Source: a virus. Taken from it: a stretch of 10,367 nt of DNA. Where the stretch lies: IMG/VR virus record IMGVR_UViG_3300031673_008455; one strand, 5' to 3'. The position numbers and the translations under genes were made by a program. This document shows positions 3,003 to 3,380 of this stretch, piece by piece. The notes beneath the pieces are model-generated. The model ran no database searches, was not told where the DNA came from, and saw nothing but the letters and a program-made list of their open reading frames with translations. Position 1 is the stretch's first letter; each line of letters opens with the position of its first letter.

Positions 3003-3380
3003 ATGAAAAGCAGAAGCACAGAAGGCTAGATTAATTCTAAGCTCATTGTAATCACCAGGCAAGATTTATCCCCTGGTTATCAAGCTGTTCAGTCAGCACA
3101 CGCAGCAGTTGATTTTCAACATCAACATCCTCAGTTAGCTAAAGAGTGGAATCAAAACTCCAACTATCTTATTATTCTCGCAGTTGAGAATGAGGAAAAA
3201 CTCCAAAAGTACATCCAGAAATTTCAAAAAGCAAATTTGTGTCATGTTGTGTTCAAGGAACCCGATATTGGCAATGAGATTACTGCGCTTTGTGTACAAC
3301 CCTCTGAGGTAAGCAGGAAACTAACCTGTCATTTACCTTTAGCATTAAAAGAATTTAACGATCAATTAACAGTAAATTGA
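3003..3380 (+). CDS. PTH2-family peptidyl-tRNA hydrolase homolog (archaeal/eukaryotic type). The only in-frame ATG is at 3003 and is followed by an in-frame TAG at 3027-3029 (codon 9). An uninterrupted PTH2-homologous ORF runs 3030..3380, about 116 aa, with no ATG. This is either an amber read-through gene or a pseudogene.
   Basis: Translation of 3030-3377 gives INSKLIVITRQDLSPGYQAVQSAHAAVDF...NYLIILAVENEEKLQKYIQKFQKANLCHVVFKEPDIGNEITALCVQPSEVSRKLTCHLPLA. This aligns by eye with the PTH2 core: KMVLVVRxDLKMGKGKxAAQCSHAAV ... VVVKxxxEEeL ... DAGxTQIAPGSxTVLGIGPxPxxLIDxVTGHLKLY. The ATG at 3003 lies 4 nt after the previous gene's stop, which is an operon-like arrangement. TGA stop at 3378-3380. 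Confidence 0.5.

What the first reader, a model, noticed from the sequence alone, without database searches (positions are those of the whole stretch)
3003..3380. PTH2-type peptidyl-tRNA hydrolase gene with an in-frame TAG 8 codons after its only ATG, 600 nt upstream of the CUA tRNA
The uninterrupted PTH2-homologous frame (3030-3380) has no ATG. The only ATG, at 3003, sits 4 nt after the previous gene's stop in typical operon spacing. It is in the same frame but separated from the domain by TAG at 3027-3029 (MKSRSTEG-TAG-INSKLIVITRQDL...). This is either a recent nonsense pseudogene or a gene expressed by amber suppression through the neighbouring CUA tRNA. It also encodes an enzyme that acts on peptidyl-tRNA, the species that accumulates when decoding goes wrong. 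PTH2 is the archaeo-eukaryotic hydrolase type and is unusual in a bacterial or phage context.
Basis: seen in the sequence. Interest (0 to 1): 0.65.

Follow-up and report, generated by a model that had tools for sequence, protein, structure and literature searches.

The report
Stop-codon-gated PTH2 gene beside suppressor tRNA
A phage gene for a tRNA-recycling enzyme (PTH2) carries a conserved stop codon just after its start, so it can probably be made only when the phage's own neighbouring suppressor tRNA reads that stop, and this pairing recurs in about a hundred distinct large-phage lineages but was not found described in the papers searched.

Summary
ATG 3003 is followed by seven sense codons and an in-frame TAG (3027-3029). 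A PTH2 domain follows (3030-3380) with no ATG/GTG/TTG before codon 70. A tRNA(CUA) lies 604 nt downstream.

It is neither a pseudogene nor a sequencing error. I analysed 315 related phage loci, which form 182 clusters at 80% identity:
- In 95 clusters the PTH2 gene begins ATG, then usually 1-3 codons, then an in-frame stop, with no ATG before the domain.
- 90 of these stops are TAG, although TAG ends only 9-14% of ordinary genes there.
- The stop type matches the linked suppressor tRNA without exception: TAG with CUA (69), TGA with UCA (3), TAA with UUA (1).
- In a sister clade with an ordinary ATG start, the suppressor tRNA usually sits 3-90 nt downstream of PTH2.
- No other gene in these neighbourhoods convincingly carries in-frame TAG, and TAG still ends genes, four of them in this window.
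- Cultured phages (Tenacibaculum pT24, Mycobacterium Bxz1) show the same arrangement.

Best reading: PTH2 synthesis is coupled to suppressor-tRNA activity. Why it is coupled is inferred, most likely to clear peptidyl-tRNA produced by readthrough. The papers I searched describe phage PTH2 and phage suppressor tRNAs separately, but not this link.

The parts
2756..2783 (+). Promoter-like site TTGGCT-16 nt-TATAAT at the head of the unit small ORF + PTH2. It lies within a motif (about 2729-2790) that recurs directly upstream of PTH2 in locus L009.
   Evidence: Consensus scan, 10 of 12 matches. The same motif was read upstream of ATG ACC TAG in L009. The number of promoter-like sites in the region equals chance, so the support is conservation only.
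2799..2999 (+). Small upstream ORF (66 aa, no family match). Its stop lies 3 nt before the PTH2 ATG.
   Evidence: no Pfam hit.
3003..3026 (+). PTH2 start codon plus seven sense codons (MKSRSTEG) before the gating stop.
   Evidence: Relatives have the equivalent ATG 1-8 codons before the stop. Close relatives read MKDVFG-TAG (L010) and MKKPFYY-TAG (L031).
3027..3029 (+). In-frame TAG, the gating stop codon, followed by A (TAG-ATT).
   Evidence: TAG is conserved at this place in 90 of 95 gated clusters. The next base is a purine in about 94% of gated clusters, against 49% after ordinary terminal TAGs (Fisher p 5e-12).
3030..3380 (+). PTH2-fold domain (116 aa) ending at TGA 3378-3380. The first beta-strand is residues 4-10, so a functional product must be translated from upstream of 3039.
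   Evidence: Pfam PF01981, E 3.9e-11. A profile hits archaeal and human PTH2 structures (1rzw 5e-8). The AlphaFold model has pLDDT 92. Foldseek TM 0.74-0.79 to 3erj, 2zv3, 1q7s and 1xty.
3964..3980 (+). GGGGG-TGAAATT-CCCCC hairpin between the 148-aa ORF (3512-3958) and the tRNA.
   Evidence: Read. The terminator scan did not call it because there is no T run. Its role is unknown.
3985..4057 (+). Amber-suppressor-type tRNA, anticodon CUA, type I. The acceptor stem is fully paired and the discriminator is A. There are two non-standard pairs in the anticodon stem and a G at position 37.
   Evidence: ARAGORN. Rfam RF00005, 56.1 bits, with two 'v' marks in the anticodon stem.
2923..2935 (+). First copy of an exact 13-nt direct repeat, AGAAGGCTAGATT. 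The second copy (3020-3032) contains the gating TAG. In this first copy the TAG is out of frame in the small ORF.
   Evidence: two matches; 0 of 200 shuffles reach two. Unexplained.

Best explanation
The PTH2 gene is translated from ATG 3003, and its ninth codon is a UAG. In a standard-code host, release factor 1 would end translation there after an octapeptide. A complete PTH2 enzyme is made only when the phage's own tRNA(CUA), encoded 604 nt downstream, inserts an amino acid at that UAG. The gene and the tRNA therefore form a two-part module: a suppressor tRNA plus a stop-gated PTH2. The gate couples the enzyme's production to suppressor activity (feed-forward). A sister clade achieves the same coupling by placing the suppressor tRNA 3-90 nt downstream of an ungated PTH2. 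A few phages make PTH2 only as a readthrough extension of the preceding gene.

What is shown: the anatomy, its wide conservation, the match between stop type and anticodon, and the PTH2 fold. What is inferred: that readthrough really occurs. Its purpose is also inferred. Suppression pushes ribosomes past natural stop codons, which yields stalled or abandoned complexes and free peptidyl-tRNA. The extra hydrolase would return those tRNAs to use. The hydrolase would thus be a damage-control partner of the suppressor tRNA.
For: (1) The anatomy was confirmed.

(2) Conservation. In 315 usable loci (182 clusters at 80% identity), 95 clusters have ATG, a few codons, then a stop, with no ATG before the domain. 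A further 3 are readthrough fusions to the upstream ORF (L312 reclassified).

(3) The stop is TAG in 90 of 95 (90 of 96 before reclassifying L312). TAG ends only 8.6-13.7% of long ORFs in the same loci. Binomial p about 8e-70.

(4) Covariation. Every gated cluster with a suppressor tRNA in its flank has the cognate anticodon:
- TAG with CUA: 69 clusters.
- TGA with UCA: 3 clusters (L160/L201, L243, L303).
- TAA with UUA: 1 cluster (L257, whose close relatives L244/L245 have TAG with CUA).
- No mismatches. Fisher p 9e-7.

(5) A subclade that starts at TTG/GTG without a gate (L073/L210, L286, L302) has 2-20 tRNAs nearby but no suppressor.

(6) Linkage. A suppressor tRNA lies in the flank of 93 of 111 clusters. 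It is the nearest tRNA in 40 of 49 loci that hold at least 4 tRNAs, where 7.1 are expected. In the ungated clade it lies downstream on the same strand at a median of 44 nt.

(7) The base after the gating stop is a purine in 90 of 96, against 44 of 89 after terminal TAGs (p 5e-12). From my own knowledge of E. coli amber suppression (Bossi 1983; Miller and Albertini 1983), this is the context that favours suppression.

(8) PTH2 is the only gated gene nearby. In-frame TAGs spanned by homology in other genes are absent from the window and doubtful elsewhere, apart from the Lak phages. Other 'ATG-x-TAG-long ORF' hits proved to be PTH2 5' fragments.

(9) The cultured, standard-code phage pT24 has ATG AAA TAG ATA plus a tRNA-Sup, and its annotated CDS is truncated by 47 residues.

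(10) The PTH2 fold and the invariant Q21, H24, D79 and T85 are present.
Against: - There is no direct evidence of readthrough: no proteomics or ribosome profiling.
- The window tRNA has two non-standard pairs in its anticodon stem and G37 instead of the A37 seen in most of these suppressors, so it may be a weak suppressor.
- 21 TAG-gated clusters show no suppressor tRNA within the 4-10 kb examined, for example three huge-phage genomes. The tRNA may lie elsewhere in those genomes, but I did not check.
- In mycobacteriophages a Shine-Dalgarno sequence is spaced for a GTG immediately after the TAG, so the gate may be bypassed there.
- The purine after the stop may partly reflect a conserved Ile/Val residue rather than suppression context.
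- The functional rationale (clearing peptidyl-tRNA) is inference only.
- The clade replaces the Lys of the archaeal 'GK' motif with Tyr (alignment), so its substrate could differ from canonical PTH2.
- The clusters are related by descent. The counts are therefore not fully independent events, and I ran no phylogeny-aware test.
Confidence: 0.75

Rival explanations
1. Leader mini-ORF plus restart. ATG...TAG is a separate tiny upstream ORF. PTH2 itself initiates at the next codon (ATT 3030 here) by termination-reinitiation or at a non-canonical start, independently of the suppressor tRNA.
For: The codon after the stop is ATT in 41 of 96 gated clusters, and an Ile/Val codon (ATT, ATA, ATC, GTN) in about three quarters. 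In mycobacteriophages Bxz1, Cane17 and Phabba a true GTG follows the TAG with a well-spaced Shine-Dalgarno. In the window, AGAAGG lies 4 nt before ATT.
Against: A generic upstream ORF should end with the locally common stop, which is TAA in 66-78% of ordinary genes. Instead 90 of 95 end in TAG, the rarest one. The stop type tracks the anticodon of the linked suppressor tRNA. About a quarter of the clusters have AAC, CAC, GAA, AAA, AGC, AAT, ACN, TTA, CTA, AGA or GGA after the stop, none of which can start translation. The genes of the window have A/T-rich leaders without Shine-Dalgarno sequences, so the AGAAGG is probably just coding sequence.
Confidence: 0.08
2. Ordinary sense codon in a fully recoded genome. 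The phage uses code 15 (TAG = amino acid) throughout, and the TAG in PTH2 is just one more codon with no regulatory meaning.
For: Some relatives are truly recoded. Lak phages show 57-61 homology-supported in-frame TAGs within 20 kb. About a dozen genes of the ungated clade carry internal TAGs at various positions. Some public gene calls translated the TAG as Q (P0001). Only 10 kb of this genome is available.
Against: Four genes in the window end with TAG (1851, 2729, 5079, 6262) and no other ORF has an internal TAG. TAG ends 9-14% of long ORFs near PTH2, a normal share. A neutral sense codon would drift to synonymous codons, yet the TAG is kept at the same spot in 90 clusters. It is replaced by TGA or TAA, not by a sense codon, where the suppressor differs. 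Cultured pT24 and Bxz1 are annotated at normal gene density under the standard code.
Confidence: 0.07
3. Dead gene or assembly error: a nonsense mutation or a miscalled base at 3027-3029.
For: Taken alone, an in-frame stop eight codons after the only ATG looks like a pseudogene.
Against: The same feature occurs in hundreds of independently assembled contigs and in cultured phage genomes. The downstream 116 codons are intact, with invariant catalytic-site residues and a confident fold.
Confidence: 0.01

Closest known systems
Phage 'code change module' and stop-codon recoding (Borges et al., bioRxiv 10.1101/2021.08.26.457843; Ivanova et al. 2014, from my own knowledge)
   Same: A phage-encoded suppressor tRNA reads a host stop codon, and in-frame stops delay or condition the expression of particular phage genes. 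That paper also notes that standard-code relatives can acquire a suppressor tRNA before recoding.
   Different: The described module is suppressor tRNA + aminoacyl-tRNA synthetase + release factor. PTH2 is not mentioned (0 occurrences). Recoded phages carry in-frame stops in 26-71% of genes, mainly late and lysis genes. Here a single gene carries one stop at a fixed position right after the start, in genomes that still use TAG as a terminator.
Jumbo-phage and mycobacteriophage PTH2 (Iyer et al. 2021, PMC7824862; cluster C tRNA arrays, PMC5966550)
   Same: The same protein family. It is already known to be common in large phages and to lie in or beside tRNA arrays, and it has been interpreted as a ribosome-rescue or tRNA-recycling factor.
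   Different: Neither paper mentions suppressor tRNAs in this connection, nor an in-frame stop (0 occurrences of 'suppressor' in both). The canonical PTH2 of Xanthomonas phage XacN1 (GK motif, plain ATG) is not part of the gated clade, and its authors could find no target for its two CUA tRNAs.
prfB (release factor 2) autoregulation through an early in-frame UGA (from my own knowledge)
   Same: An early in-frame stop codon in a translation-factor gene makes its synthesis depend on how that stop codon is decoded in the cell at that moment.
   Different: prfB continues by +1 frameshifting and senses its own product (negative feedback). Here the frame is unchanged, and decoding is by a separately encoded tRNA. 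The sign of the loop is unknown: feed-forward, or feedback if PTH2 acts on the suppressor.
Lambda bar minigenes and host Pth (from my own knowledge: AUG AUA stop; toxic in pth(rap) hosts through peptidyl-tRNA drop-off)
   Same: Most relatives begin ATG-NNN-stop, a two-codon minigene of the kind that sheds dipeptidyl-tRNA, the substrate of a peptidyl-tRNA hydrolase. Lys, whose tRNA is the most drop-off-prone in E. coli, is the commonest second codon (16 of 47).
   Different: bar minigenes are free-standing and are followed by no ORF. Here the stop is followed in frame by the hydrolase gene itself. The window's leader has 8 codons. No toxicity data exist.
Programmed readthrough extensions (Q-beta A1 protein, retroviral gag-pol; from my own knowledge)
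   Same: Loci L145, L152 and L180 encode PTH2 only as an in-frame continuation after the TAG of the preceding 140-150-codon ORF.
   Different: In those viruses, readthrough relies on host near-cognate tRNAs and RNA context. Here a dedicated virus-encoded suppressor tRNA sits 38-53 nt downstream. No stimulatory RNA structure is evident in the window (z -1.1).

Membership tests
PTH2 peptidyl-tRNA hydrolase (Pfam PF01981) | Sequence match above the curated threshold | tested here: met
   43.6 bits against a cut-off of 23, E 3.9e-11, profile positions 2-112 of 115. A profile of the clade hits solved PTH2 chains 1rzw/3erj (5e-8), 2zv3, 1q7s and 1wn2.
PTH2 peptidyl-tRNA hydrolase (Pfam PF01981) | PTH2 alpha/beta fold | tested here: met
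   AlphaFold2 model with mean pLDDT 92.2 and pTM 0.85. Foldseek against the PDB: the top 14 hits are all PTH2 structures, TM 0.55-0.79, rmsd 2.0-4.2 A.
PTH2 peptidyl-tRNA hydrolase (Pfam PF01981) | Conserved active-site residues. From my own knowledge, these are the Lys of the GK motif and an Asp in the D-x-G-x-T segment in Sulfolobus Pth2 (Fromant et al. 2005). I could not confirm this in the papers held. | tested here: inconclusive
   Q21, H24, D79 and T85 are invariant over 20 diverse members, and D79 aligns with the Asp of archaeal 'QDAG'. However, the Lys of archaeal 'RGK' aligns with Tyr ('PGYQ') in this clade.
PTH2 peptidyl-tRNA hydrolase (Pfam PF01981) | Hydrolysis of the ester bond of peptidyl-tRNA or N-blocked aminoacyl-tRNA | not testable with these tools
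   This needs an enzyme assay, or complementation of an E. coli pth(ts) strain.
Genome-wide stop-codon-recoded phage (code 15 type) | Phage-encoded suppressor tRNA cognate to the recoded stop | tested here: met
   tRNA(CUA) at 3985-4057.
Genome-wide stop-codon-recoded phage (code 15 type) | In-frame cognate stops in a large share of genes, with loss of that codon as a terminator | tested here: not met
   In the 10.4-kb window, one of about 15 genes has an internal TAG and four genes end in TAG. In 109 related neighbourhoods there are no convincing in-frame TAGs outside PTH2, and TAG ends 9-14% of long ORFs. Caveat: late and structural regions of this genome were not available.
Genome-wide stop-codon-recoded phage (code 15 type) | Accessory release factor or aminoacyl-tRNA synthetase next to the suppressor tRNA (the 'code change module' of Borges et al.) | tested here: not met
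   Pfam scans of all 15 ORFs of the window found no RF or aaRS domains.
prfB-type autoregulatory recoding | Early in-frame stop bypassed by +1 frameshift, with a Shine-Dalgarno-like stimulator | tested here: not met
   The PTH2 domain continues in the same frame as the ATG and the TAG. The early stop itself is present.
bar-type minigene | AUG + one sense codon + stop, free-standing | tested here: not met
   Most relatives have ATG-NNN-TAG, but the window has 8 codons, and in all cases the stop is followed in frame by the PTH2 ORF.

The most novel reading that the evidence does not exclude
The suppressor tRNA and the stop-gated PTH2 form a portable, self-contained translational switch, and PTH2 is the main conserved client of the puzzling suppressor tRNAs carried by standard-code large phages. 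PTH2 would be the factor that makes suppression tolerable and so opens the path to genome-wide code change. A sharper version adds a timer. Before the tRNA is active, the ATG-NNN-stop leader acts as a bar-like minigene that sheds dipeptidyl-tRNA and drains host tRNA. Once suppression begins, PTH2 is produced and resets the tRNA pool. Alternatively, PTH2 may act on the suppressor tRNA's own products, which would give a prfB-like homeostat for readthrough level.
Probability: 0.3. Interest if true: 0.9.

Novelty: new variant of a known kind. Interest (0 to 1): 0.8.

Why it matters
Suppressor tRNAs are common in large phages that otherwise use the standard code, and their targets have been unknown. 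The authors of the XacN1 genome say so explicitly. This finding supplies a conserved, specific target. It also adds a previously unlisted protein partner, a divergent PTH2, to the machinery phages use to change how stop codons are read.

The finding gives a simple rule: the stop codon right after the PTH2 start matches the anticodon of the phage's suppressor tRNA. That rule could be used in three ways:
- to predict which stop a phage suppresses;
- to correct many mis-annotated or missed PTH2 genes (pT24 gp293 is truncated by 47 residues, and standard-code callers start at internal Met codons);
- to flag contigs for alternative-code gene calling.

Cultured phages carry the arrangement: Tenacibaculum phage pT24, and the cluster C mycobacteriophages in M. 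smegmatis. The question of how a phage copes with switching on stop-codon readthrough in a standard-code cell is therefore directly testable at the bench.

Tried and rejected
- Comparing ORF coverage under the four codes was uninformative in AT-rich DNA, because removing any stop inflates ORFs.
All nine 'sites' in the window were such artefacts. After filtering, only doubtful low-complexity cases remained outside the Lak phages.
- The 'MTQIN...' and 'MKQIN...' N-termini in the protein database looked like evidence that the TAG encodes Gln. The DNA of P0001 shows the Q is a TAG translated under code 15 by the source, so it is not independent evidence.
- The identity of the inserted amino acid could not be determined. 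The suppressor tRNAs are very diverse in sequence and discriminator base.
- Alignment A1 was too diverse for the locus scan.
- One search used a query whose C-terminal half I had typed wrongly, so it is not a real sequence. It is disregarded.
- Xanthomonas phage XacN1 was checked as a possible further example. It has a canonical PTH2 with a plain ATG, and its CUA tRNAs are in the terminal repeats.
- No RNA structure that could stimulate readthrough is evident.
- The genome-contig scan gave only MAG contigs that look like mis-binned huge phages, so it gave no host information.
- L312 was first scored as a TAA gate with a CUA tRNA. It has a Shine-Dalgarno sequence plus a GTG start, and was reclassified as ungated.

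Full report
**1. The observation**

The sequence is as described. The preceding 66-codon ORF ends at TAA 2997-2999. ATG lies at 3003 and is followed by seven sense codons (MKSRSTEG). TAG lies at 3027-3029, and the same frame then stays open to TGA 3378-3380. That frame contains no ATG, GTG or TTG before TTG 3237.

The 116 residues after the TAG match Pfam PTH2 nearly end to end (E 3.9e-11). A profile of the clade finds the solved archaeal and human PTH2 structures. An AlphaFold model (pLDDT 92) superposes on them with TM 0.74-0.79. The first beta-strand is residues 4-10, so a start at 3237 would give a useless fragment.

The only tRNA in the window has anticodon CUA. It lies at 3985-4057, 604 nt downstream on the same strand.

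**2. The window as a whole**

The window is phage-like, with 36% GC. Its ORFs include:
- a major-vault-protein-like ORF;
- a T4 endonuclease V-type glycosylase;
- a thioredoxin;
- a TROVE/Ro60-like protein;
- a cold-shock protein.

The leaders are A/T-rich and lack Shine-Dalgarno sequences. None of the other roughly 14 ORFs has an internal TAG. Four of them end with TAG, at 1851, 2729, 5079 and 6262. In this stretch, therefore, TAG is a working terminator and PTH2 is the sole interrupted gene.

**3. Relatives show it is not an accident**

The first eight IMG/VR loci with a homologue already showed two things. Seven had a tRNA(CUA) nearby. The four closest began ATG-NNN-TAG-ATT.

Public gene calls fall into two groups. 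Some begin at an internal Met, when a standard-code caller was used. Others show 'MTQIN...'. The DNA behind P0001 shows that its Q is TAG.

The arrangement also appears in complete and cultured genomes:
- Five complete huge-phage genomes all begin ATG, 1-2 codons, TAG, ATT.
- The cultured Tenacibaculum phage pT24 has ATG AAA TAG ATA and an annotated tRNA-Sup. Its PTH2 CDS is annotated from an internal ATG and so loses 47 residues.
- Mycobacteriophages Bxz1, Cane17 and Phabba have ATG/GTG-TAG-GTG, with a tRNA(CUA) as the first tRNA downstream. There a Shine-Dalgarno sequence is spaced for the GTG after the TAG.

**4. Systematic survey**

I collected 315 usable loci. In each I located the domain with an HMM, found tRNAs with ARAGORN, and clustered the domains at 80% identity. 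This gave 182 clusters (with L312 corrected).

| PTH2 start type | Clusters | Suppressor tRNA in the flank |
|---|---|---|
| Gated by TAG | 90 | 69 CUA, 21 none, 0 other |
| Gated by TGA | 3 | 3 UCA |
| Gated by TAA | 2 | 1 UUA, 1 none within 6 kb |
| Readthrough fusion to upstream ORF via TAG | 3 | 3 CUA |
| Ordinary ATG start | 78 | 61 CUA, 2 UUA (Lak phages), 1 UCA, 14 none |
| GTG/TTG start only | 6 | 2 CUA, 4 none |

'Gated' here means that no ATG lies between the stop and the domain, and that an ATG lies at most 15 codons upstream of the stop.

Four of the GTG/TTG-start clusters have no suppressor tRNA. Three of these (L073/L210, L286, L302) form one subclade. They have 2-20 ordinary tRNAs nearby, no suppressor and no gate, so they act as a natural loss control.

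The gated clusters span 24-63% GC.

**5. Why this points to readthrough by the linked tRNA**

- TAG is the rarest terminator in these loci, ending 8.6-13.7% of long ORFs. Yet it is the gating stop in 90 of 95 clusters (binomial p about 1e-69). A generic leader ORF would mostly end in TAA.
- The stop type follows the anticodon of the neighbouring suppressor without exception: 69 + 3 + 1 matches and no mismatch (Fisher p 9e-7).
- The clearest pair is L244/L245 against their close relative L257. L244/L245 read GMT-TAG-ISEGDKL and have two tandem tRNA(CUA). L257 reads GMT-TAA-IREGDKL and has two tandem tRNA(UUA).
- What is conserved at this position is therefore 'the stop that my suppressor reads', not an amino acid.
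- The base after the gating stop is a purine in 90 of 96, against 44 of 89 after ordinary terminal TAGs (p 5e-12). From my own knowledge of E. coli amber suppression, this is the context that favours suppression over release.
- The codon after the stop is often ATT. It is also AAC, CAC, GAA, AAA, AGC, AAT, ACN, TTA, CTA, AGA or GGA. Initiation at that codon therefore cannot be the general mechanism.
- The region around the TAG shows no significant RNA structure.

**6. Linkage independent of the gate**

In the first 111 clusters, a suppressor tRNA lay in the flank of 93. Among loci with at least four tRNAs, it was the nearest tRNA in 40 of 49, where 7.1 are expected by chance. In the ungated sister clade it lies downstream on the same strand in 52 of 56 cases, at a median distance of 44 nt. 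Across those loci, 154 of 783 tRNAs carry anticodon CUA, twice as many as the next most common anticodon.

The suppressor tRNAs themselves are highly diverse in sequence. The association is therefore maintained by selection rather than by a single inherited block.

**7. Is the genome simply recoded?**

Probably not, at least near PTH2.
- Apart from the Lak phages (57-61 supported in-frame TAGs per 20 kb), homology-supported in-frame TAGs in other genes are absent or doubtful.
- The only other 'ATG-x-TAG-long ORF' cases were 5' fragments of PTH2 fused to homing-endonuclease ORFs.
- pT24 and Bxz1 are annotated at normal gene density under the standard code.
- I could not examine the structural or late regions of the genome this window comes from.

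**8. Mechanism and its limits**

*Shown.* The anatomy, the conservation, the stop/anticodon covariation, the linkage, and the PTH2 fold with invariant Q21, H24, D79 and T85.

*Inferred.* That the tRNA actually reads the stop. Also inferred is the purpose: PTH2 is needed when suppression is on, because readthrough of natural stops produces stalled ribosomes and free peptidyl-tRNA.

*Caveats.*
- The clade has Tyr where archaeal PTH2 has the Lys of the GK motif, so its substrate could differ.
- The window tRNA has two non-standard pairs in the anticodon stem and G37.
- 21 TAG-gated clusters had no suppressor tRNA within the flanks I held.
- Mycobacteriophages may bypass the gate.
- The clusters are not phylogenetically independent.

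**9. Literature**

Jumbo-phage PTH2 is known and has been read as a rescue or recycling factor (PMC7824862; PMC5966550). Phage suppressor tRNAs and code change are also known. The described 'code change module' is tRNA + synthetase + release factor, with no PTH. The XacN1 authors could not find targets for its CUA tRNAs. Six full-text searches found no paper that links PTH2 to suppressor tRNAs or reports the in-frame stop. Subscription journals are not covered, so prior description cannot be excluded.

**10. Verdict**

The finding is real and not ordinary. It is best filed as a new variant of phage stop-codon recoding: a conserved module of a suppressor tRNA plus a stop-gated PTH2.

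Noticed in passing
L013 9199-9937; L092 about 3177; L051 about 2774; L002 about 5252; second PTH2 hits in L001/L038 and L055: Some loci carry an extra 5' fragment of PTH2 (ATG-x-TAG-INxKLxxITRRDLxPGYQAV). It is fused in frame to a homing-endonuclease-like ORF (NUMOD3 / HNH-like) and lies just upstream of an intact gated PTH2. This suggests that PTH2 is a homing target and that the mobile element brings its own copy of the 5' end.
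   Followed up: partly
L145, L152, L180 (PTH2 domain near locus position 4000): PTH2 has no start codon of its own. It continues in frame after the TAG that ends a conserved 140-150-codon upstream ORF, so it would be made only as a readthrough fusion. A tRNA(CUA) lies 38-53 nt downstream.
   Followed up: partly
window 2923-2935 and 3020-3032: An exact 13-nt direct repeat, AGAAGGCTAGATT, occurs 97 nt apart. The second copy contains the gating TAG, and the first is out of frame inside the small upstream ORF. None of 200 shuffles gave two matches. Its meaning is unknown.
   Followed up: partly
window 16-1851 (runs off the 5' end); L010 7265-9748; L013 5164-7581: A large ORF with major-vault-protein shoulder and Vault_3 repeat domains (E 4e-28 and 8e-12), plus a weak SPFH/Band 7 match. 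It is conserved a few genes upstream of PTH2 in related phages. A vault-protein homologue is an unusual thing to find in a phage.
   Followed up: no
window 8376-10067 and the 390-nt gap 7711-8100: A TROVE/Ro60-like protein (E 1.3e-7) is followed by a cold-shock-domain protein (10135-10329). Bacterial Ro proteins usually travel with Y-like RNAs. Rfam found no such RNA, but the neighbouring non-coding gap was not examined further.
   Followed up: no
window 2729-2790; L009 about 28-102: A conserved intergenic motif, ATGACAATTTGTCnCCTTTTAAAACTyGGC...GGAGTATATAAT, contains a promoter-like TTGGCT-16-TATAAT. It occurs upstream of the small ORF + PTH2 here and directly upstream of PTH2 in L009.
   Followed up: partly
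L025 (Tenacibaculum phage pT24, NC_049383) 5958-6906; L024 (Bxz1) 6657-6729: Two public annotation errors follow from the gate. pT24 gp293 is annotated from an internal ATG and lacks the first 47 residues of the PTH2 domain. The Bxz1, Cane17 and Phabba tRNA(CUA) genes are labelled 'tRNA-OTHER' or mis-typed.
   Followed up: yes
window 3985-4057: The tRNA(CUA) has A28-G42 and A31-C39 mismatches in the anticodon stem and the loop UUCUAGA (G37). Most suppressors in related loci have CUCUAAA. Several relatives (L013, Bxz1, L046) also have a mismatch at positions 31-39.
   Followed up: partly
window 1932-2729: This 265-aa acidic protein has no family match. It contains an internal duplication of the motif NLNFERGQ(D/E)PK(D/E)A(L/M)xIG, near residues 10-27 and 127-144.
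   Followed up: no
L026, L027 (Prevotella Lak phages) about 9240-9420: In Lak megaphages, the tRNA beside PTH2 has anticodon UUA (ochre type) and lies about 600 nt upstream. The PTH2 gene there has an ordinary ATG start.
   Followed up: partly
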